A stretch of DNA of 64,000 bases, taken from Candidatus Poribacteria bacterium (GTDB taxonomy: Bacteria; Poribacteria; WGA-4E; WGA-3G). The notes under the pieces are model-generated. The model did no database searches. It was not told the origin of the DNA and saw only the letters and a list, made by a program, of their open reading frames with translations. Positions 40,232 through 49,924 of this stretch are shown piece after piece (position 1 is the stretch's first letter; every line of letters starts with the position of its first letter). The position numbers were made by a program, and so were the translations under genes. Location: the NCBI GenBank assembly GCA_003635195.1, contig PYIY01000195.1:13961-77960 (forward strand), in the 5' to 3' direction.

Positions 40232-41788
40232 ATGAAATTAAGCACTGTCGAAGCTAAAAAACGCCCCTCCTTCAACTATATTGAATATTTTGAAACGCAG
40301 CTCTATTATCAATGCATCACGTGTTCAACGGTTGTAGAACCTGAAATGGGGTACTGTCGAGAATGCAATGCAGAGTTAAATCCAAATAATAGGCAGCAGC
40401 TATTTTGCTATGAGTGCAGAAAGCCAATCATCTACAAAAGAGACTATTTCATAAACAAAAAACACTTTGTCTCACACTATCCTGTTAATTACTTAGCATG
40501 CCAATGTCCAGGAAACCTCTGGATACCATTCATAAAAAATCAGAATTTTAGTGATCCTGCTACAGGATTAGTGAGGATCACAGTAGATAATATGTACATT
40601 TGGACTATTTGCTGTGCCGAATCTTCTCGATATAGCAATAATGAAGATATTTACTTCATTAATTGCCAACAGCAAGAAGATGATCTATTCCTAAAGCCCT
40701 ATATAAGATACAATATAGGAAAGACAAAATTATCTACATCAGAACGTAATGAATTTACTGGTAGATACTATAGAATATGCACGGATGTCATATCGTTAGG
40801 TATCAAATTGGGTATTTTAAGAGAATTAATGCGTGATGAAACATTTGCTAGGCGGGGGTGGGTTCGGTTAGAAAATCGGATACAAGAAATATTAGACTTT
40901 TCTGGAATATACTTTAGTAATGAGTTAATATCTAGCCTATTGGAAAATTGTTTTGCCAGATTACGGAGGCTTTTTAATCCAGCCCCCAAAGATAAAGAGA
41001 ACACTGTTGAACGATACAGAAATGACTTTCTCAAAACTTCTTACCCCAAAACACATAAGTTTGAACGTAAGAAATACGGGATCGCAAAACTAATTGGAAG
41101 GCTGAAAATATTAACAAACAAAAGTATATTACACGACGACATTGATTTTAACAGCAATATTTTCCTTGGAGATTGTCGAACCCTATTCGATTTCTACGAC
41201 GACACAGTTCTGAAAACTATAGATATCCTCAACAAGATGCACCGGTTCAAATTGTTCTTTAATCACGAAGACTCATTAAGGTCCTTAGGTTTACATAATA
41301 CTGGTGGAGAGATAGCACTGGCTTACTTGAGATTGGGAGATGAAGCCTTAACCGCATATAAACAAAAACAAGCACTCGAACTATTACGTTTTGACAACTA
41401 CATTGACAATGGAAACCTATCTCCTGAAGAACGTGAAAGTTATGAAAAGAAAAGAGATATTTATGAACGTAACCTTAACTCCTTCTTTGACCGCTGGATT
41501 ATCTGGGATCACCAAACATCTTTAAATATAATCCTTCCAGACGGTCAACATATTGAGATGCCCTATGGTTTCAAGAGTATGCGCCTCACAAAAACCCATG
41601 ATGGCGATTATATTATTTACATTAAAACCCCGGGTATTACCCTATGTCCTAATTACCGTATAGAGTACTTTGGCAATAACGAAAATTTCGCAAGACAGGT
41701 ATTTAGAGTAATTGATAAACAAAGGTATGAACACGAAACTATAGACTTAAGCAATTTCACATACGATTCCTCACTAACTATATTCTGA
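40232..41788 (+). CDS. Hypothetical protein with N-terminal multi-CxxC zinc-ribbon region, encoded in AT-rich DNA
   Basis: 518-aa ORF, about 36-38% GC against about 50% in the flanks. CITCSTV...CRECNAEL...CYECRKP Cys pairs are present. No recognisable catalytic motif. Confidence 0.5.
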   Translation: MKLSTVEAKKRPSFNYIEYFETQLYYQCITCSTVVEPEMGYCRECNAELNPNNRQQLFCYECRKPIIYKRDYFINKKHFVSHYPVNYLACQCPGNLWIPFIKNQNFSDPATGLVRITVDNMYIWTICCAESSRYSNNEDIYFINCQQQEDDLFLKPYIRYNIGKTKLSTSERNEFTGRYYRICTDVISLGIKLGILRELMRDETFARRGWVRLENRIQEILDFSGIYFSNELISSLLENCFARLRRLFNPAPKDKENTVERYRNDFLKTSYPKTHKFERKKYGIAKLIGRLKILTNKSILHDDIDFNSNIFLGDCRTLFDFYDDTVLKTIDILNKMHRFKLFFNHEDSLRSLGLHNTGGEIALAYLRLGDEALTAYKQKQALELLRFDNYIDNGNLSPEERESYEKKRDIYERNLNSFFDRWIIWDHQTSLNIILPDGQHIEMPYGFKSMRLTKTHDGDYIIYIKTPGITLCPNYRIEYFGNNENFARQVFRVIDKQRYEHETIDLSNFTYDSSLTIF

Positions 41789-42234: not shown

Positions 42235-45200
42235 CTATTGAAAATCAAGCACTTCATCAATCTCTGCCATAATCCGCAGCGTTTCTCCTACTGCAACCAA
42301 AATTCCAGAATACTGCCGCACCTCCGCATGGGTTAACGCCGTGTTTTTTCTATCCTGCAACCACTTCTTACACACCTGATACGCCCCAATCTTATATTCC
42401 CACACCTCAGCAGGTACATCCGTGAAATGTTGATCGTCATTAATCCAAACGTGTCCACCCGCATAGCGAACTTTTGAGACAACGGCATTGCCTTCACCTT
42501 CAAACCGATGTAGCGGTGAAATCTGTACATCTTTCAAAAGATGCCAATCAATCAAATTCTGCCCCAACGCTGCAAGTTTTCGGAAGTATTCAATATCTTG
42601 CGGCAAAGGGATATATGGAAATCCATATTTCAAAAACTCATAGTAACTTTCACGATAGATAGGGCTATAAAGATGGGCGTAGATATAGGCGATAATTTCC
42701 TCTGATGAAACGCCTTGAGGGGGTTTTGATAATGCAGTTTGCGGCAAATCGAATTTTTCTGAGAGCACTTTAAGGAAATCAGGGTTGAAATTATGTTGGC
42801 GTTCTGTTGTCAATTCTGCCCTATTGGGATCCTCATAAATATAGAGCGGGAATACGTGTACAGACTCACTTGATCCACTTGAGAGATAACAATTCTCTGT
42901 AATTTCGTCGGTTATTAAAATATGTTGCCACTGCTTGCCTCCTTTGACTATACGACAGACACAAAGAGCAATATTTTCGTTTAGCAAATGAGGCATAATA
43001 TCATTGCGTGGACTCGTGTGAAATCCGCAGGATCGTCCAGTATAGTAGGTTTTACGAACATCAAAAGGACGGTGTCGAATAGGTACAATATACTGTTTTG
43101 CATTGGAGTGGTCGCGGAGATCTTGTTGTGCCAGATGGACTTTCCAATATCGGTTGTCCAAATCATATTTTTTCTGCACCTCGTTTTCGGAGAGTGACAC
43201 AAAGTTTTGTACAGTCTCGCGTAACGTATTCTCTGTGCGATGAATAGTTACTTCGTTACGTCCGGTGACAATTCCGCTTGAACCGGACTGGAAAATCTCA
43301 TTTAGCTGCCATCCATGTTTGTATATTGCCTCGCGGTTTGGGACAGAATCTTGAGGGACAAAAAGGTAGAGCGGAGATGCGGGATGCAATTCACACCAAT
43401 CAGTTTTTTGGACATCAGTTTCCAAAAGTGTTCTATATTTTTCCTCTCGATTTCCCCACATATCCGCGTAGTAGCATGTTGCTTTGCCCGGAGTGCTGCT
43501 TTCTTTGACGCATAATAGAATCGCAACCCCCACTTCTATGTCAAATACGTTCTGATCCTCTTTTCCATCTGGAATAGCTTCCTCTACTATTATACTGCCG
43601 TGCAAATTAAGTAGGTATATGGAGTCAAAACTGTCTAATAAACTCTGCCGCATCCTACGAAAAGTTAAACCGTCAAGGAAGCTATTATTCACAATGTAAC
43701 CAACAACACCTTCGCCATTTTTATCAATTCGCCACTGTGCCCACCGGATAAACTTAACATAATCGGATTGCAGTGATTTTTTCTGGTCCCAGATCCCCAA
43801 CAGTTGTCCATCTACTGGTTTGTAATCCTCAATGAGCTGTCCAATAAAAGTTGGTTGGTCATCATTATCGCTACTCGGATTTGCCGAGGCTAGGGGATAG
43901 GGTGGATTACCAAGAATGACGAGGAGTGGTTCGTCCCGCTTTACTGAAACCGCTGCATTTGCCTCATCAGAGATAAATCCTGCAAAAGGTAAACGTTGCT
44001 CGCGCTCTATAGGTTCCTCTAACGTATTAGTAAGATAGACGCGGAGACGTTCGGTTGCCTGCCATCCTTGCGCTTGTAGAAACAGACTCAACTTCAGATG
44101 TGCAATCGTATAGGGTGCAACCAACAACTCAAATCCGAAAAGTCGTTTGACCAATTGTGCATTGATATACCGGTTCCAGTCGCCTGTACCGTAGGTCGTT
44201 GTGACGTATTCACGGATGTGGTCAAGTACTGCAAAAAGAAAACCTCCGGTGCCCGTCGCGGGATCAAGAATGAGCGTGTTGTCATCGGAAAGCCCATCAG
44301 ATCTGTTAAGTGCTGTCTTGAGCAAAACATCAACAGATCGAACAATGTAGGAGATAACCTGTGGCGGTGTATAATAGACCCCGCGTTCCACGCGCAGCTG
44401 CGGGTCATATTCAGCAAGAAATGTCTCATAGAAATGGATCACTGGATCTTCAAGATGAGTTCTCGCAATAAACGCCGTGCGAAGCATCTCTGTAGGGACA
44501 TTTTGAAGAAGGTTTGCAATGTCCTCCAAAATATAAGTAATGTTTGCATTAAGATTTGGCGAATCTATTTGGTGGAAAAGTTGTCGCAAAAATGGATTTG
44601 ACTGCGGGAGCGCGCTGGCGGCAGTTTCTCGTGAGAAGTTTGTCGCGTTAGGTAACGCGCAGCGTGCAGCGAAGAGTCCATACGCTAGTGTCTGTGCGTA
44701 CATATCCGCAAACTTGCCAGGAGTCAATGTAGAGAGGAGAAGTTCCTTAAAGGCCGAGAACATCGCGTAGGTGTCGCTGTTTTCATCGGTGAGCCTCGTT
44801 TCGATTTGTGTTTGGAGTTCACGGGTTCGGCGTGCAAGATGCTTCGCGAGTGCCTCCGGAGTGGTGATTTGCATGGAGCCCGCACTGAAAAATCCATCTA
44901 ACAGGCTTTCCAGATTTTCAATTCCGTTGTCAATTAGTGCTATCGCGCGCGATGTCCCATTCGTATATAACCGAAACTCCACGAAATTGGTGAGGATAAA
45001 GTTATCAAGGTTCTCAATAAAACGTTCATTCTGCACCTTGGCGTGCCCAGTGAGTGCATCAAGGTTCCTGCCATAAGCCTCCGCCTCAATATAACCGAGA
45101 GGGAATAGACCTTCTCTGACAACAAAATCCGGTCTGCCGATTTCTAACTGTCGCGGCTCGTGGGTAATCCTGATAGTATATTCTAAAAGTTCAGCGGTCT

Positions 45201-45314
45201 GTTCCAAAAAGTCTTTGAGATGTCCGTGTAAGGAGAGTTCAGCGGTAGCATCGCCCTGTTCTCGGGTCTGTTGGATGTTTTGCCTGTACGTTCTACAAAT
45301 CTGTTGAAATAACA
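42235..45314 (-). CDS. MmeI-family (Type IIL) single-chain restriction-modification enzyme homolog: N-terminal PD-ExK-like domain + N6-adenine DNA methyltransferase + TRD
   Basis: MTase motif I ILDPATGTGGFLFAV and motif IV LGNPPYP are present. The N-terminus GRPDFVVREGLFPLGYIEAEAYGRNLD...LTNFVEFRLY parallels MmeI GFVDLFWPGILLIEMKSRGKDLD...LVCDFQRFRLT (from memory). Start taken as MLFQQIC at 45314 (GGAG SD); the ORF track extends to 45432. Confidence 0.75.
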
Positions 45315-45499
45315 TTAGGCTCCTTTTTAATTCAGATAGTTTTAGAATCGAATATAAATCGCGTTTGTCCTCTCTACTACCAGTACTATTTGTTGAAAAT
45401 GAAAACAGTTGATAATGTTTTGGTAACAACAATACATTAAAACCCTAAGTATGGTAGTGGTATCTGAACGAGCTTTAACTCTGTTCACTGTTAGGAATA

Positions 45500-47449
45500 T
45501 TATCTTCCCCGATTGAGATCTTCAACAGTTTTCTTGATACCTCTTGCAATATTTGTAAATGCCTCATCCTGATTTTCCCATAGCGTCACAGCCTTCACAC
45601 CTCTCGGTAATGCCTGAAGTTTACCAAAGGGTGCCTCTTCCCAATCAACAGGACGCAGTATTATAGGAATTACCCGGGCCTCTCCGACACTGTGTCGTTC
45701 CATAGCACGCTTCATTTCAATATCATAACAATAATCGGATGCAAGGAAATCAGCACTAACAAGCAGAAGTATTATGTGAGCAGTATTCAAGTGTTCATGA
45801 ATCTCTCCTTCCCATTCTCTACCAGCACTTATTTTCCGATCATGCCAATCTGTAATAACTCCCTGTCTTCTCAAAATGGAGAGGTGGTTCTCAAGTTGTT
45901 CTCGTAACTCCTCATCTCTGTGGGAATAAGAATAAAAAAGCTCAACCCCACCCGGTTGCGATCCTGAACCGATTGTTTGATCCTGTTGTTCTTGAATTAA
46001 ATTGGATAAATACTCCCTCTCTGCAATCATTTGGAGAAACGAACCCTCTGGTAATGGAAGAAAAGGATCATCATGTATTGCTTGCATTCTGCGGATGGCG
46101 GCCTCCACTTGTTCACCATGTCGATGACAGACTTTCCAAACTTTCTCCACCTTCTCTTTTTCACTCGTCCCAGGTATATAATCAATGAGATCAATTAACT
46201 CATTGAGCATCTTATAATAAAAATTATCATAATTTAGCGCAGTAAAGTGCTTTGCTTGGCGAACATAATCAATCAGCGTAGTTCTGACTTCATCCTTCCC
46301 AACACCTTCCTTAATAAAATCAAACGTGTAAATACCACTGTCATCTACATCATCTAATTCCGAGCCATAAGCGGCAAATCTTCGATCTATACATTGCGAA
46401 CAACCACCACAATGAGTTGCTTGGCCTGTATGTTGAAGTGTTTGACTGCAAGACACTGTGCTTGTGATCAAATCCTCTCGTCCAGCTTCAGATAGAATCT
46501 GGTAGATTTCTGTTTTGGTTTTCCATAAGAAAGGGGTGGCGATTTTAACTTTCGGTTCATAGATTGTTGCAAAGAAATTCTCAAGACACATTATCGTTTT
46601 TGGATGTGTCGTCCGGCTAGCTCTTGCATTCATCAGATCTTGTCTCTTTGGAAAGTTAATCGAAGTGATTCCATTTTCATAAACAAAAATCTCCCTCTGG
46701 GAAAGAGCATGTGACAAAGCGTAAGCGATAGCAGTATACAAAAAAGAACGAGTTCGTTGCGTTTCCTCCCTCGCTCGAATTTGGCGTAAACTACAATAAA
46801 ATTTGTAATGTCTGATCCGATTCGGATAACGTTGATGAAGTGCTCTAACTAACTGGTCCTGTGTTCTTGCAGTCTCTGGCTGACCAGAACGGTGACTAAT
46901 GAGGCAGAGTTGATCAGAAGAATTTTCAAGACAGTCAACAATCCCAGCCAAGGAATCAAGTCCTCCTGAAAAAAGAATCACTTTTGTATTTTGCTGGGGT
47001 TCAATTTGAAACGTTTCCTGATCAAACAAGTTTGTCGGGTCAGTTGAGTGCCCGGATTGAAAAGAGAAATGATACGTCTGATCGCCGGACATAAAGACGA
47101 GTGTTTCTTTGAGTCTTTCCTTGACATCAGCCCTATCCCAGAAAGCAAAATCTCGAACTTTAATGACAAAGTAAAATGACCTTGCCCAACTATGGGACTC
47201 TACACTGGCTTTATTTCCACGAGAGGTTAACCTATCGGCACAAAAAACATAGGCAGCAATCTCTAACAAATCAAGGATACGATCAGGAAAATGAGATACA
47301 TAGTGTATAAAACTAGGCAGGCCAAGTTTTACATTTGGGATCTTGTTGGAAAATTCTCGATATTCAAGGACTAAATTATCATCTTGAGCCCATTGCTGAG
47401 GTGGATCTGCACCATTACATAGTACAATTCGTGGAGGGACATCTCTCAC
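45500..47449 (-). CDS. Fusion protein: unknown N-terminal domain + QueC-like PP-loop ATP pyrophosphatase domain + C-terminal TIR domain
   Basis: PP-loop KVILFSGGLDSLAGI is present. The QueC-type C-terminal Zn motif reads LWKTKTEIYQIL...STVSCSQTLQHTGQATHCGGCSQCIDRRFA; compare E. coli QueC LMWIDKAETW...[21 protein letters not shown]. The final ~140 aa are a bacterial TIR domain (LFYSYSHRDEE...W...LLLVSADFLASDYCYDIEM with the conserved Glu). Confidence 0.7.
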   Translation of the reverse strand: MRDVPPRIVLCNGADPPQQWAQDDNLVLEYREFSNKIPNVKLGLPSFIHYVSHFPDRILDLLEIAAYVFCADRLTSRGNKASVESHSWARSFYFVIKVRDFAFWDRADVKERLKETLVFMSGDQTYHFSFQSGHSTDPTNLFDQETFQIEPQQNTKVILFSGGLDSLAGIVDCLENSSDQLCLISHRSGQPETARTQDQLVRALHQRYPNRIRHYKFYCSLRQIRAREETQRTRSFLYTAIAYALSHALSQREIFVYENGITSINFPKRQDLMNARASRTTHPKTIMCLENFFATIYEPKVKIATPFLWKTKTEIYQILSEAGREDLITSTVSCSQTLQHTGQATHCGGCSQCIDRRFAAYGSELDDVDDSGIYTFDFIKEGVGKDEVRTTLIDYVRQAKHFTALNYDNFYYKMLNELIDLIDYIPGTSEKEKVEKVWKVCHRHGEQVEAAIRRMQAIHDDPFLPLPEGSFLQMIAEREYLSNLIQEQQDQTIGSGSQPGGVELFYSYSHRDEELREQLENHLSILRRQGVITDWHDRKISAGREWEGEIHEHLNTAHIILLLVSADFLASDYCYDIEMKRAMERHSVGEARVIPIILRPVDWEEAPFGKLQALPRGVKAVTLWENQDEAFTNIARGIKKTVEDLNRGR

Positions 47450-48231
47450 TTCTTACTGCTCTCCCGTTGTAATTCCTCACGCATCTTTCCAAAAGCGTGC
47501 CATAAAAATCCTTGAACCTCTTTTTTGCTAGGAATACCTTTTTTCGTATGTTGATTAAACCAACCTGCTGCGAAAGACTGTGTAATCTTCGCTGTTTCAA
47601 AGGCATTTGAAGAAATAGCATCAATGTGTTTTTCAAGATACTGCCCAAATTTAATTCGTTCATCAATACTACCTAAAGCTGCAGAAATTTCTCTTTCCAA
47701 AAAATACTCTAAATACCCCTGTGTAAATTTTCCGAAAAACAGACGCGATAATTCACAGAATCCCGCACCATTCCCTGCTTTACGCCATACTTCAAAAGGA
47801 TCTTTCAATGAATCCAAAAGACTAAGTGAATTCACGTGATTTTGATCATACCAAATAGAAATTGCTTCACTAGCAGCCTTTTGGGCAATTCCACTATATT
47901 CAAAAGAATCTTTTTGAGATGCAACATAAGCATTGACAGCTTTCGCAAAAGAAAGTGGTGTTGGATTATTAGGAAGTTCAATCCCAATATCCAACAACCA
48001 AACTTGTGGGTTTTCTTCACGCGAAGCAACAGCAAGATTGACTAGGAATTGAAACGTACCCAAAACACCACTATCTCGCTCAATATGACGAAATCGTGAT
48101 CTAACATTCTGAATTGTCTTTTGCGTAATATCCTCGATTTCAGTATCAGATACATGCCTTCCAGCAATCTGTTCAAAAATATCTCGCCACTTTTTCGTTT
48201 GGGGAAGAACAGACATTCGTTCATGACCCAT
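47446..48231 (-). CDS. Hypothetical 261-aa protein translationally coupled to the QueC-TIR gene (ATGA overlap)
   Basis: AT-rich coding ORF with no recognised domain. A possible R-x4-H (RSRFRH) motif is present. Confidence 0.5.
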   Translation of the reverse strand: MGHERMSVLPQTKKWRDIFEQIAGRHVSDTEIEDITQKTIQNVRSRFRHIERDSGVLGTFQFLVNLAVASREENPQVWLLDIGIELPNNPTPLSFAKAVNAYVASQKDSFEYSGIAQKAASEAISIWYDQNHVNSLSLLDSLKDPFEVWRKAGNGAGFCELSRLFFGKFTQGYLEYFLEREISAALGSIDERIKFGQYLEKHIDAISSNAFETAKITQSFAAGWFNQHTKKGIPSKKEVQGFLWHAFGKMREELQRESSKK

Positions 48232-48372
48232 TACTTGATCTCCATATCACAATTTCTTATCGGATTCCCTTATTCCTTGCGTATATTGACAAGGACTTTC
48301 CTTTCTGGCTTTAGCTATCAGAAATCAGAGCCAGTTGTTGACTCCGTGTGGTTCAACAGCATAAGTCCACCT

Positions 48373-49293
48373 TTAATCTTGGTTTTTGACAAGAACTACC
48401 TTAATAGCAGATAAACCTCTATCCGTATGATGGATGTCAAATTTCACTTTTTGACCTTGTTGAAGCAAATTGACTTTTTCATTCAAAATTTGTGACTCAT
48501 GCACAAATATATCCGGATCATGTTCCTCACACGTTATGAAGCCGTACCCTTTGATTGTGTCGAACCATTTTACCTCTCCTTGTGTCCGGATTAAAAGCGG
48601 CGAAATTTCTCTTTCGATCATTTTAACGGCTTTTGAAAATGGAATCTGAAAAAATTCTCTATCCATTCGTATTCGATAATCACTCAGTAGTTTGAAAACG
48701 AGATTTTCTGCCTCTTTGGCATCTTCCACTTCAAAAACTGCTTTTGCAGAATACGGTATTAACACACCTGTTGCTGAGTTTATCTCCTTAACTCTGTCTT
48801 CTACAGAACGAGTAGTCATTCCGATCTTTAGAACATCAGGTTCATCTTTCCTTGACAAAATATACAACCAACCATGTTTCCCCTGAGAGACACGAATTTT
48901 TCTATGATTTTTCCAATGACTAAGGTAGGTCGGAAGGGTCCCGCTAATCAAAGTCCCACGTATCAAAAGTGCTTGTTCAAAATCACGTCCCTTTAGACTT
49001 TCCCGGAGCTTAACTAATAGGGAAACAATGGAATTCATTTCACTTCTAGGCGGATGGCCAAGTCTATCATAGACAGTAAACCAATTCCATTGGTCTTTCC
49101 TTAATGACCGATTAAACATACCTTTCAGTTCTGAAATAGCATCCAAATCTACCTGGTCTGGAGGAATTCCATCACTTAAAAAAAGAGATACAACATCTAC
49201 GGCATTATCAAAACGTCTTCTCATAGTTACCGACAAATCTGACATTCCAAATCCATATTTATGTATAGTCATCGGCGTTATCTTCTTTATCAA
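48373..49293 (-). CDS. T5orf172/MUG113 (GIY-YIG superfamily) domain protein with C-terminal cold-shock (CspA-like S1) DNA-binding domain
   Basis: GWLYILSRKDEPDVLKIGMTTRSVEDRVKEINSATGVLIPY...REFF matches T5orf172. The C-terminal GEVKWFDTIKGYGFITCEEHDPDIFVHESQI...GQKVKFDI is a cold-shock domain. Confidence 0.65.
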   Translation of the reverse strand: MIKKITPMTIHKYGFGMSDLSVTMRRRFDNAVDVVSLFLSDGIPPDQVDLDAISELKGMFNRSLRKDQWNWFTVYDRLGHPPRSEMNSIVSLLVKLRESLKGRDFEQALLIRGTLISGTLPTYLSHWKNHRKIRVSQGKHGWLYILSRKDEPDVLKIGMTTRSVEDRVKEINSATGVLIPYSAKAVFEVEDAKEAENLVFKLLSDYRIRMDREFFQIPFSKAVKMIEREISPLLIRTQGEVKWFDTIKGYGFITCEEHDPDIFVHESQILNEKVNLLQQGQKVKFDIHHTDRGLSAIKVVLVKNQD

Positions 49294-49384
49294 TCTTGGT
49301 TTGGTGTATTTGAAGCGGCTACTGCCAGTCTGTCATCAGAATCAAACTATGGTACAGGGTCATTACAATTTTAAGAAATTATAG

Positions 49385-49835
49385 AGTTTCTTGTCCTTTT
49401 TCAGGATCCGGTGCGGTTAGGAAACCGCACCATAGGTGTCAATTTAGTGATTTTCACGATGTTTTTGTAGCATCATCTCTTCAAATGCTGCAGAAATCCG
49501 CAGAAATACCCAAGCAAAGACACCTATCAAAAACCCCCTACGGGGCTTAGATGTGTGAGGTCCCGTTTTTCTACAGAGATGCTTAAAGAAATACCCAAGC
49601 AAATAAACCCTACGGGATTCAAGAGGTTTTTGAAGTCTTCAAGATTTCCGCGTAGTATCCGGTTCGGTTAGGAAACCGAACCTACCGGGCCTGGATACCC
49701 AAGCAGTTATTTTTTCTAAAATTGACACCTATGGTGCGGTTAGGAAACCGCACCTACCGGGTCTGGGAGTCTAAAATTGGACGAAAAAACCGAGAACTGA
49801 ATAGCTCTGGACTATGGTATAAAACATTGACTATT
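49385..49835. repeat. Composite cluster of modular repeats (three hairpin modules, two CCCAAGCAAA modules); homologous to 58310..58700
   Basis: GGTGCGGTTAGGAAACCGCACC occurs at 49410 and 49733. The variant GGTTCGGTTAGGAAACCGAACC occurs at 49661. gcagaaatacccaagcaaagacacctatcaaaaaccccctacgggg occurs at 49500. About 80-90% identity to the 58.3-58.7 kb copy. Confidence 0.6.
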
Positions 49836-49849
49836 ATCTCAAATCTCCA

Positions 49850-49924
49850 AGATTTGTCAACTATTTTCAATTTCCCCATAGAATTTGAAAAACTTTAAGA
49901 AAATGATTTCACTCTCTCAATGTG
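49850..49924. repeat. ~85-bp imperfect direct repeat, right copy (partner at 38691..38780)
   Basis: See 38691..38780. Same orientation. Together they bracket the AT-rich accessory segment. Confidence 0.5.

What the first reader, a model, noticed from the sequence alone, without database searches (positions are those of the whole stretch)
48373..49293. T5orf172 (GIY-YIG-like) + cold-shock domain protein at the head of the putative defense operon
The central region matches the T5orf172/MUG113 domain (GWLYILSRKD...KIGMTTRSVEDRVKEINSATG...REFF). This is a GIY-YIG-superfamily module that recurs in abortive-infection and defense islands. It is fused here to a C-terminal CspA-like nucleic-acid-binding domain. 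The gene is on the same strand, 141 nt upstream of the 261-aa/QueC-TIR pair, and is AT-rich. It could be a nucleic-acid sensor or nuclease component of the same system, or an independent defense gene.
Basis: partly seen in the sequence, partly recalled or inferred. Interest (0 to 1): 0.55.

Follow-up and report, generated by a model that had tools for sequence, protein, structure and literature searches.

The report
Stand-alone T5orf172 nuclease with cold-shock domain
This gene encodes a three-part protein (an undescribed helical domain, a T5orf172/GIY-YIG-type nuclease domain and a cold-shock nucleic-acid-binding domain) that looks like an independent, mobile defence-island gene and not a part of the neighbouring QueC-TIR system.

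Summary
ORF 48373-49293 (-) matches T5orf172 (aa 141-228, E 9e-15) and CSD (aa 238-301, E 4e-22). It lies 141 nt upstream of the 261-aa/QatC-TIR pair and has 37.6% GC against about 50% in core genes. The true start is probably the ATG at 49272 (299 aa).

It has no match in Pfam, NCBIfam, PHROGs, PADLOC or PDB, by sequence or by fold.

The operon reading fails:
- Of 80 genome loci with homologues, only the syntenic Poribacteria relative carries the QatC-TIR pair, and there 3.8 kb of IS elements separate the two.
- Of 80 loci holding the 261-aa partner, none carries this gene, although 54 of 55 keep the QatC-like gene.

Homologues have no fixed partner. They often sit beside or inside restriction-modification loci, for example hsdR-[gene]-hsdM-hsdS.

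In other proteins the N-domain is joined to PD-(D/E)xK-like, Mrr or HNH nuclease domains, to TIR (with a T5orf172-like domain) or to a kinase (with T5orf172). This fits a sensor joined to interchangeable effectors.

Best reading: an autonomous single-protein conflict or defence nuclease aimed at single-stranded nucleic acid. Function is untested. It is a new variant of a known kind, of moderate interest.

The parts
48373..49293 (-). ORF as reported (306 aa from TTG, stop codon included). The probable real CDS is 48373-49272 (299 aa from ATG).
   Evidence: Searches give the ORF. The closest homologue, P0001, starts at the equivalent ATG. Nucleotide homology to the syntenic locus L001 starts at 49272.
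48904..49245 (-). N-terminal all-helical domain (aa 17-130), undescribed. Invariant residues include S54, L56, K57, G58, M59, N61, R62, D67, Q68, W69. Proposed sensor or regulatory module.
   Evidence: Alignment A1 shows the conservation. The model has six helices at pLDDT above 90. There is no family hit, no PDB sequence hit and no significant PDB fold hit. A profile of the domain finds 420 clusters, with varied partner domains.
48610..48873 (-). T5orf172/MUG113 domain (aa 141-228), GIY-YIG superfamily. Proposed nuclease effector. Invariant residues: G141, Y144, K156, G158, T160, R167, N172, E196, R207, R209, D211-F215.
   Evidence: Pfam match, PADLOC PDC-S57 and PD-Lambda-1 partial matches, alignment, BFVD fold matches, and motif-order comparison with ICP1 Odn E180.
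48391..48582 (-). Cold-shock domain (aa 238-301) with intact RNP1 (KGYGFI) and RNP2 (IFVH) motifs. Proposed single-stranded nucleic-acid binder.
   Evidence: Pfam match, NCBIfam Csp models matched below their equivalog cut-offs, PDB sequence hits and fold hits, and the alignment.
48232..48372 (-). 141-nt spacer to the 261-aa gene. It holds only a weak terminator-like hairpin (48346-48326) and is not unusually structured.
   Evidence: one search gives z = -1.18. Co-transcription is neither shown nor excluded.
49273..49870 (-). Block of about 598 nt directly upstream of the ATG, absent from the syntenic relative. It separates the gene from its ancestral Shine-Dalgarno site. It contains MITE-like 36-nt inverted repeats (49410-49445 and 49719-49754) and a near-consensus sigma-70-like promoter (49860-49833).
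45500..48231 (-). Context, not part of the feature: the 261-aa gene (47446-48231) and the QatC-like+TIR gene (45500-47449). The two overlap by 4 nt and form a self-contained two-gene module.
42235..45432 (-). Context: Type ISP/IIG restriction-modification enzyme (1065 aa) in the same low-GC island.

Best explanation
The gene is an autonomous, horizontally mobile, single-protein conflict system. It is most probably an anti-phage or anti-mobile-element nuclease. It shares a defence-island hot spot with the QatC-TIR pair but is not part of that system.

Proposed working:
1. The undescribed helical N-domain acts as the sensor or regulator and keeps the enzyme silent (inferred).
2. The T5orf172 domain, a GIY-YIG-type fold with the arginine and glutamate invariant, is the nuclease effector. 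The fold is shown here. Activity is inferred from ICP1 Odn and SNIPE.
3. The cold-shock domain tethers the enzyme to single-stranded DNA or RNA, such as replication or recombination intermediates or transcripts of an invader. Binding competence is inferred from the intact RNP1 and RNP2 motifs.

The frequent position beside or inside restriction-modification loci suggests that it backs up or complements restriction.
For: Independence from the QatC-TIR pair:
- 1 of 80 genome loci carries the pair nearby.
- 0 of 80 loci with the 261-aa partner carry this gene.
- IS elements lie between the genes in the relative.
- Divergence differs: 86.7% against 70% identity.

Mobility and accessory status:
- GC is 0.376 against about 0.50.
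- Poribacteria homologues at 64-87% identity sit in different genomic positions.
- Taxonomic spread is patchy across phyla.
- Integrases, recombinases and IS elements are nearby.

Defence context:
- Embedded as hsdR-[gene]-hsdM-hsdS with an 18-nt gap and a 4-nt overlap.
- 25 nt downstream of an Mrr/AspBHI type IV enzyme.
- Next to Type ISP, Type III plus ApeA-HEPN, Type IIG and PDC-S26, and an N6_N4 methyltransferase.
- Sequence resembling restriction-modification genes is about twice as dense within 4 kb as at 6-10 kb.

Effector-swap signature. The N-domain profile finds 420 clusters. It occurs with:
- T5orf172 alone, or T5orf172 plus CSD.
- A class of about 365 aa with a PD-(D/E)xK-like motif.
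- Mrr_cat or HNH_2.
- TIR_2 placed N-terminal to the domain (two of the three such proteins keep a T5orf172-like domain after it).
- T5orf172 followed by a protein kinase.

Nuclease competence:
- The conserved core of the T5orf172 domain is invariant in 30 homologues.
- Published nuclease activity of T5orf172/GIY-YIG domains depends on the conserved glutamate: Odn E180A (PMC8263062) and SNIPE E414A (PMC13190303).

The CSD is structurally canonical.
Against: - No experiment exists on any member of this family, and the literature search found nothing on the domain combination.
- The PADLOC match to PDC-S57 covers only the T5orf172 part (profile positions 5-91 of 212), and PDC-S57 is itself only a candidate.
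- The equivalence of E196 and R167 to the catalytic residues rests on motif order and spacing. Automated alignments to Odn and I-TevI were not significant.
- Some loci show no defence context, for example between sufB and sufC or after lon.
- The restriction-modification proximity test used queries taken from these same loci and had no random-locus control.
- In this window a 598-nt insertion separates the gene from its ancestral ribosome-binding site, so expression here is uncertain.
- Co-transcription with the downstream pair cannot be excluded.
Confidence: 0.55

Rival explanations
1. The gene is a sensor or nuclease component of the 261-aa/QatC-TIR system and is transcribed as the first gene of one operon.
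For: - Same strand, only 141 nt apart, with similar low GC.
- No convincing terminator lies in the gap.
- The same three genes are present in the syntenic relative.
- A few N-domain proteins are fused to TIR, so the N-domain can work alongside TIR chemistry.
Against: - Co-occurrence is 1 of 80 loci in one direction and 0 of 80 in the other.
- The 261-aa and QatC-like genes overlap by 4 nt and are conserved as a pair in 54 of 55 loci without this gene.
- In the relative, 3.8 kb of IS630-type elements lie between them.
- Divergence is unequal: 86.7% against 70%.
- There is no TIR among the 25 Pfam families that most of the neighbours within three genes matched, across the 22 CSD-subfamily loci sampled.
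Confidence: 0.06
2. The gene is a selfish, free-standing homing-endonuclease-like element (or a recently domesticated one). It spreads by cutting and inserting between conserved genes and gives the host no defence benefit.
For: - T5orf172 is the dominant domain of free-standing homing endonucleases in ICP1-like phages (PMC10448857).
- The gene is found wedged between sufB and sufC, between hsdR and hsdM, directly after udg and after lon.
- Its position differs among close relatives.
Against: - No phage record matches the N-domain. Phage hits cover only the T5orf172 part.
- The N-domain also pairs with TIR and a kinase, which are not homing-endonuclease features.
- There is one copy in the window.
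- The full-length architecture is strongly conserved across phyla.
- No disrupted target or intron/intein context was seen.
Confidence: 0.15
3. The gene is a housekeeping or stress-response nucleic-acid-binding protein: a cold-shock-type RNA chaperone or regulator, or a domesticated T5orf172 acting as a DNA-binding repressor as in PLE CapR. It would have no role in conflict.
For: - Public records call homologues 'cold shock domain-containing protein'.
- T5orf172 was first described as a DNA-binding domain.
- A domesticated T5orf172 repressor exists (PMC8096241, listed).
- The CSD is canonical.
Against: - The gene is rare and patchy: 81 confirmed matches among 185,579 species genomes, a lower bound from a two-pattern scan.
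- It is AT-rich and positionally mobile.
- The conserved T5orf172 core residues are invariant, which is not expected for a binder-only domain.
- Csp equivalog cut-offs are not reached.
- The N-domain is shared with Mrr, HNH, PD-(D/E)xK-like and TIR partners.
Confidence: 0.1

Closest known systems
SNIPE / PD-lambda-1 (single-protein defence nuclease; Nature 2026, PMC13190303)
   Same: One polypeptide combines a targeting or sensing region, a nucleic-acid-binding region and a GIY-YIG/T5orf172-type nuclease whose conserved glutamate is essential. The PADLOC PD-Lambda-1 models match the T5orf172 part here (E 5e-8).
   Different: Nothing here resembles DUF4041: the PD-Lambda-1 model match starts only at about aa 131, and no long hydrophobic segment that could be a membrane anchor is apparent in the sequence. 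This protein has an unrelated helical N-domain, and a C-terminal CSD that implies single-stranded rather than injected double-stranded DNA targets.
PADLOC candidate PDC-S57
   Same: This is the best PADLOC hit (E 1.3e-21). It is a T5orf172-containing single-gene candidate found in defence islands.
   Different: Only profile positions 5-91 of 212 are matched, which is the T5orf172 module. The rest of the architecture differs. PDC-S57 itself is unvalidated, and no paper mentions it in the library searched.
ICP1 Odn and T5orf172 homing endonucleases of phages
   Same: Same nuclease fold and core motifs. The domain is a proven nuclease dependent on the conserved glutamate. The architecture is likewise modular, with a specificity domain joined to T5orf172.
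   Different: Those are phage-encoded and use double-stranded-DNA-binding domains such as RepA_N-like, Bro-N or helix-turn-helix. This family is cellular, and its N-domain is absent from the phage collection.
Restriction-modification-embedded back-up nucleases such as PrrC within the EcoprrI hsd locus (from general knowledge, not tested here)
   Same: In locus L022 the gene sits inside a type I hsd operon and is translationally coupled to hsdM. Many homologues abut restriction enzymes.
   Different: PrrC is an ABC-ATPase/HEPN-like anticodon nuclease with no sequence relation to this protein. Most homologues here are not inside hsd operons.
Retron Se72 (type V) cold-shock-domain effector
   Same: A CSD used in a defence context. 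There are weak matches to NCBIfam retron_eff_Se72 (45.9 bits) and PADLOC CSD_V.
   Different: The score is below the cut-off of 82. No Rfam family of any kind reaches its gathering score in the window. Here the CSD is only the C-terminal fifth of a larger enzyme.

Membership tests
T5orf172 (PF10544) / GIY-YIG superfamily | Profile match above Pfam's gathering score | tested here: met
   55.4 bits against a cut-off of 20; MUG113 46.5 bits against 22.3.
T5orf172 (PF10544) / GIY-YIG superfamily | Alpha/beta fold shared with T5orf172/GIY-YIG proteins | tested here: met
   127 BFVD matches at E<=1e-3. The best superpose over 92-110 aligned positions at about 2-2.5 A rmsd, and one is annotated as a GIY-YIG nuclease. 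There was no significant match to solved GIY-YIG structures in PDB when the search used the two-domain model.
T5orf172 (PF10544) / GIY-YIG superfamily | Catalytic arginine and glutamate retained (Odn E180, I-TevI R27/E75) | tested here: inconclusive
   R167 and E196 are invariant in 30 homologues. They fall at the expected places by motif order and spacing relative to Odn. hhalign, hmmsearch and pairwise alignments to Odn and I-TevI were not significant.
T5orf172 (PF10544) / GIY-YIG superfamily | Metal-dependent nuclease activity | not testable with these tools
   Needs purified protein.
Cold-shock domain (PF00313) | Profile match, five-stranded OB barrel, RNP1 and RNP2 motifs | tested here: met
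   78.4 bits against a cut-off of 27. Target TM 0.85-0.91 to CspA/B/C/E. KGYGFI and IFVH are present, and W243, Y250, F252, F263, H265 are at least 90% conserved.
Canonical stand-alone Csp proteins (CspA/C/D/E equivalogs) | NCBIfam equivalog cut-off; protein of about 70 aa | tested here: not met
   Best score is 70 bits against a cut-off of 115 (cspD). The protein is 299-306 aa.
PDC-S57 (PADLOC candidate) | Full-length match to the model | tested here: not met
   Only profile positions 5-91 of 212 align, which is aa 140-227.
SNIPE / PD-lambda-1 | DUF4041 region between the membrane anchor and the nuclease | tested here: not met
   No DUF4041 hit in Pfam. The PD-Lambda-1 models align only at profile positions 347-449, the nuclease part. 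No dedicated transmembrane predictor was run.
Qat system (QatABCD) or the local 261-aa/QatC-TIR module | Conserved co-occurrence with the QatC-like gene | tested here: not met
   1 of 80 and 0 of 80 loci. No Qat model matches this protein.
Retron type V (Se72) effector | Equivalog score; adjacent reverse transcriptase and msr-msd RNA | tested here: not met
   45.9 bits against a cut-off of 82. No Rfam family reaches its gathering score in the window. No reverse-transcriptase domain was found among the five island and flanking proteins scanned.
Free-standing homing endonuclease | Phage or intron context, and cleavage of the gene-less allele of the insertion site | tested here: inconclusive
   The full-length architecture is absent from 50,697 phage records. 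Insertions between conserved genes do occur. Cleavage specificity is not testable here.

The most novel reading that the evidence does not exclude
The helical N-domain (core motifs around SELKGMFNR and DQWDWF) defines an unrecognised family of modular prokaryotic immune proteins. One shared sensor or regulator would be wired to at least five kinds of partner domain: T5orf172, PD-(D/E)xK-like, Mrr, HNH and TIR, with CSD or a kinase added in some. On this reading, the T5orf172-CSD members act as restriction-linked back-up nucleases. They would attack single-stranded nucleic acid when an invader escapes or disables the neighbouring restriction enzyme, as PrrC does.
Probability: 0.15. Interest if true: 0.7.

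Novelty: new variant of a known kind. Interest (0 to 1): 0.45.

Why it matters
If the protein is active, it would add a single-gene nuclease system with an unusual targeting module, a cold-shock domain. That implies recognition of single-stranded DNA or RNA and not of sequence or modification.

The N-terminal domain is absent from every library tested here, yet it is found in about 420 protein clusters and is joined to several different nuclease types and to TIR. It is therefore a good candidate for a new sensor or regulator module. Working out what it recognises would explain a whole set of unannotated genes.

The finding also corrects the boundaries of the neighbouring QatC-TIR system, which is a two-gene module.

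Tried and rejected
- PDB fold search with the whole model returned only cold-shock proteins.
- Repeating it with the model cut to the N-domain plus T5orf172 gave no significant hit (best E 0.016, generic helical bundles).
- PDB sequence-profile searches with the full alignment and with the N-domain alone gave only CSDs or noise.
- Aligning the T5orf172 domain to I-TevI (sequence recalled from memory) and to ICP1 Odn by hhalign, hmmsearch and pairwise alignment gave no significant alignment. The catalytic-residue assignment therefore rests on motif order.
- Clustering neighbours across about 70 loci to find a conserved partner gene found none. The largest cluster, HsdR-like helicases, occurs in 6 loci.
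- Literature searches for T5orf172 with 'cold shock', for PDC-S57, and for CSD with GIY-YIG and defence returned nothing.
- No Rfam family was found in the flanks or the whole window. The 141-nt spacer is not significantly structured.
- No tRNA gene marks the island.
- Exact look-up of the protein under three possible starts found nothing in the 15-billion-protein collection.
- I first assigned the REFF glutamate (E213) as the catalytic residue. I dropped this after locating Odn E180, which corresponds by position to E196.

Full report
**What is there**

The ORF 48373-49293 (minus strand, 306 aa from a TTG) is real. Pfam places T5orf172 at aa 141-228 (55.4 bits, cut-off 20) with the overlapping MUG113 model. 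It places a cold-shock domain at aa 238-301 (78.4 bits, cut-off 27).

PADLOC hits are PDC-S57, CSD_V and PD-Lambda-1. In each case only the T5orf172 or CSD portion aligns. NCBIfam matches only Csp models, all below their equivalog cut-offs. PHROGs matches only T5orf172 and Csp families.

The start codon is probably the ATG at 49272. The closest homologue begins there, and nucleotide homology with the syntenic relative begins at exactly that base.

**Anatomy**

Alignment of 30 full-length homologues (40-87% identity) shows three conserved parts.

Invariant residues include S54, L56, K57, G58, M59, N61, R62, D67, Q68 and W69.
- *T5orf172 core.* G141, Y144, K156, G158, T160, R167, N172, E196 and D211-F215 are invariant.
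- *CSD.* RNP1 (KGYGFI) and RNP2 (IFVH) are kept.

AlphaFold2 gives a confident model (pLDDT 86.8, pTM 0.78): a six-helix N-domain, an alpha/beta T5orf172 domain and an OB barrel.

- The barrel superposes on CspA/B/C/E with target TM 0.85-0.91.
- A model cut to the N-domain plus T5orf172 (pLDDT 90.3) matches 127 viral T5orf172/Bro/GIY-YIG proteins through the T5orf172 domain only.
- That model matches nothing significant in the PDB.
- The N-domain has no relative in Pfam, NCBIfam, PHROGs, PADLOC or PDB sequences and is absent from 50,697 phage records.

**Is it part of the QatC-TIR system?** No.

The window comes from a Candidatus Poribacteria genome. Its closest relative (87% identity) has the same hot spot between udg and the Rieske/cytochrome b genes. 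The order there is udg, this gene, two IS630-type elements (3.8 kb), the 261-aa gene, QueC-TIR, then a Type ISP remnant.

- tblastn of the window's 261-aa and QatC-TIR proteins against 80 genome loci with homologues (10 kb on each side) finds them only in that relative.
- Poribacteria homologues at 83% and 81% identity have other company. One lies beside a Type ISP enzyme and DUF4268. The other lies in an island with Type III restriction-modification and ApeA-HEPN.
- Others lie next to an N6_N4 methyltransferase, near an HsdS gene with IS630, or after lon.
- In the reverse test, the 261-aa family (1323 hits) was traced to 80 metagenome loci. 54 of the 55 with enough downstream sequence have the QatC-like gene immediately downstream. 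None has a homologue of this gene, although 45 have at least 1.2 kb upstream.
- Between the window and its relative, this protein is 86.7% identical, like the core genes (82-97%). The 261-aa and QatC-TIR proteins are 70% identical.

**What company does it keep?**

There is no conserved partner. Among 664 neighbouring ORFs, the largest cross-locus cluster (HsdR-like) occurs in 6 loci. Integrases occur in 4. Among 110 neighbours within three genes in the CSD subfamily, no Pfam or PADLOC family matches more than three.

What does recur is restriction and other defence genes:

- In L022 the gene is embedded as hsdR-[gene]-hsdM-hsdS, with an 18-nt gap and a 4-nt overlap.
- In L174 it is 25 nt downstream of an AspBHI/Mrr type IV enzyme.
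- In L031 it lies between a type IV helicase-nuclease and PDC-S26. L026 has a Type IIG enzyme 2.8 kb away.

Sequence resembling restriction-modification genes covers 3.3-4.1% of bases within 4 kb of the gene and 1.5-1.7% at 6-10 kb. That test is weak. The queries came from these same loci and there is no random control.

Some contexts are not defence-like:

- between sufB and sufC;
- in an IS-rich stretch.

**The N-domain is a shared module**

A profile of aa 17-128 finds 420 clusters (E<=1e-3) among 1.84 billion representatives. Among the best 150:

- 47 are N-domain plus T5orf172 (about 235-250 aa; Streptomyces, Micromonospora, Clostridia and others).
- 19 are N-domain plus T5orf172 plus CSD.
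- 38 are a class of about 365 aa whose C-terminus carries a PD-(D/E)xK-like motif (consensus iDaf..L.sGPAiFEvKSi).
- Individual proteins pair the domain with Mrr_cat, HNH_2 or NA-iREase1.
- Three proteins carry TIR_2 on the N-terminal side of the domain. In two of them (P0216, P0238) a T5orf172-like domain follows it.
- One carries a protein kinase after T5orf172.

Two of these relatives that could be placed on contigs lie next to recombinases, and one also next to a TIR-STAND protein. One constant domain joined to interchangeable nuclease or NADase domains is the usual signature of sensor-effector conflict proteins.

**How it most likely works**

*Shown:* the fold and motif integrity of a T5orf172 domain and of a CSD; independence from the QatC-TIR pair; mobility; frequent restriction-modification company.

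*From the literature:*

- T5orf172 is a GIY-YIG subfamily.
- ICP1 Odn cuts DNA, and its E180A mutant is dead (PMC8263062).
- T5orf172 genes are the main homing endonucleases of ICP1-like phages (PMC10448857).
- The GIY-YIG domain of SNIPE/PD-lambda-1 is essential for defence, shown by E414A (PMC13190303).

*Inferred:* E196 and R167 are the catalytic pair. Taking Odn from the ICP1 record, the order beta1 (GWLYILS / DYLYVIN), beta2 (LKIGMT / CIKVGRS), helix with Arg, beta3, helix with Glu matches. The spacing is 38 residues here against 40 in Odn. Automated alignments were not significant.

*Model:* the N-domain holds the nuclease inactive until it meets an invader cue. The CSD brings the enzyme to single-stranded DNA or RNA. 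Cleavage then destroys invader (or host) nucleic acid.

I put about 0.85 on autonomy from QatC-TIR, about 0.6 on a defence or conflict role, and about 0.35 on the specific mechanism.

**Rivals**

- *Operon component:* contradicted by co-occurrence in both directions.
- *Selfish homing-endonuclease-like gene:* supported by the insertions inside the suf and hsd operons and by the pedigree of the domain. It is weakened by the absence of the N-domain from phages and by its TIR and kinase partners.
- *Housekeeping cold-shock or regulatory protein:* this is how public records name homologues. Rarity, low GC, mobility and the invariant conserved core argue against it.

**Local peculiarity**

Relative to the syntenic genome, a block of about 598 nt (49273-49870) is inserted exactly between the ancestral Shine-Dalgarno site (GAGGAAAA, then 6 nt, then ATG in the relative) and the ATG. 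The block carries:

- MITE-like 36-nt inverted repeats;
- a hairpin repeated three times here and once at 1273;
- a near-consensus sigma-70-like promoter pointing at the gene.

The coding sequence is intact. Expression in this genome may be altered.

**Novelty and verdict**

This is a real three-domain gene. The domains were called correctly and the system assignment was not. It belongs to the known kind 'single-protein defence-island nuclease with a GIY-YIG/T5orf172 effector'. It differs in two respects: an undescribed, widely shared N-domain, and a cold-shock domain as the nucleic-acid-binding module. No member has been tested. Interest is moderate.

Noticed in passing
window 49273-49870 (inverted repeats 49410-49445 and 49719-49754; hairpin copies at 49410, 49661, 49733 and 1273): A block of about 598 nt is absent from the syntenic relative. 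It sits exactly between the ancestral ribosome-binding site and the ATG of the gene. It contains a MITE-like element with 36-nt terminal inverted repeats, a 22-nt palindrome (GGTGCGGTTAGGAAACCGCACC) that also occurs 48 kb away, and a near-consensus promoter (TTGACA-16-GATAAT) facing the gene.
   Followed up: partly
window 45500-48231; loci L093-L172: The 261-aa gene and the QatC-like gene form a tightly conserved two-gene module (54 of 55 metagenome loci). Elsewhere the QatC-like protein (about 620-640 aa) ends in a PD-(D/E)xK-like domain; the one C-terminus scanned (L098) matches REase_DpnII-MboI (E 2.6e-11). In this Poribacteria lineage that end is replaced by a TIR domain, an effector swap.
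   Followed up: partly
L022:7574-14117; L173:6550-9782; L174:4189-6327: Homologues are wedged inside operons. One lies between hsdR and hsdM of a complete type I system, overlapping hsdM by 4 nt. One lies between sufB and sufC of an Fe-S cluster operon, with an 8-nt gap. One lies 25 nt after an AspBHI/Mrr type IV restriction gene.
   Followed up: partly
proteins P0135, P0138, P0148, P0166 (class of about 365 aa); P0211, P0216, P0238; P0124: The N-domain occurs in other architectures:
- a leader of about 78 aa, then the N-domain, then a C-terminus with a PD-(D/E)xK-like motif and no Pfam hit;
- TIR, then the N-domain, followed in P0216 and P0238 by a T5orf172-like domain;
- the N-domain, T5orf172, then a protein kinase.
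P0166 lies next to a large serine recombinase. P0216 lies next to an integrase, a resolvase and a TIR-STAND protein.
   Followed up: partly
L001:12205-14590: In the closest relative, two IS630-type elements (DDE_3 plus HTH) lie between this gene and the 261-aa gene, and the Type ISP gene is reduced to a 155-aa remnant. IS630-type genes also flank homologues in L003 and L175.
   Followed up: no
window 40232-41788 (+): A 518-aa ORF has the lowest GC in the island (0.357). Its only hits are weak, sub-threshold matches to a double zinc ribbon at the N-terminus. It is absent from the syntenic relative. It is an unexplained island gene.
   Followed up: partly
window 48376-49293 (-): The exact protein, under three possible starts, is not in the 15-billion-protein collection. 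The adjacent 261-aa protein is there (NCBI C6503_22365, Candidatus Poribacteria). The gene may have been left uncalled or annotated differently in the public record.
   Followed up: partly
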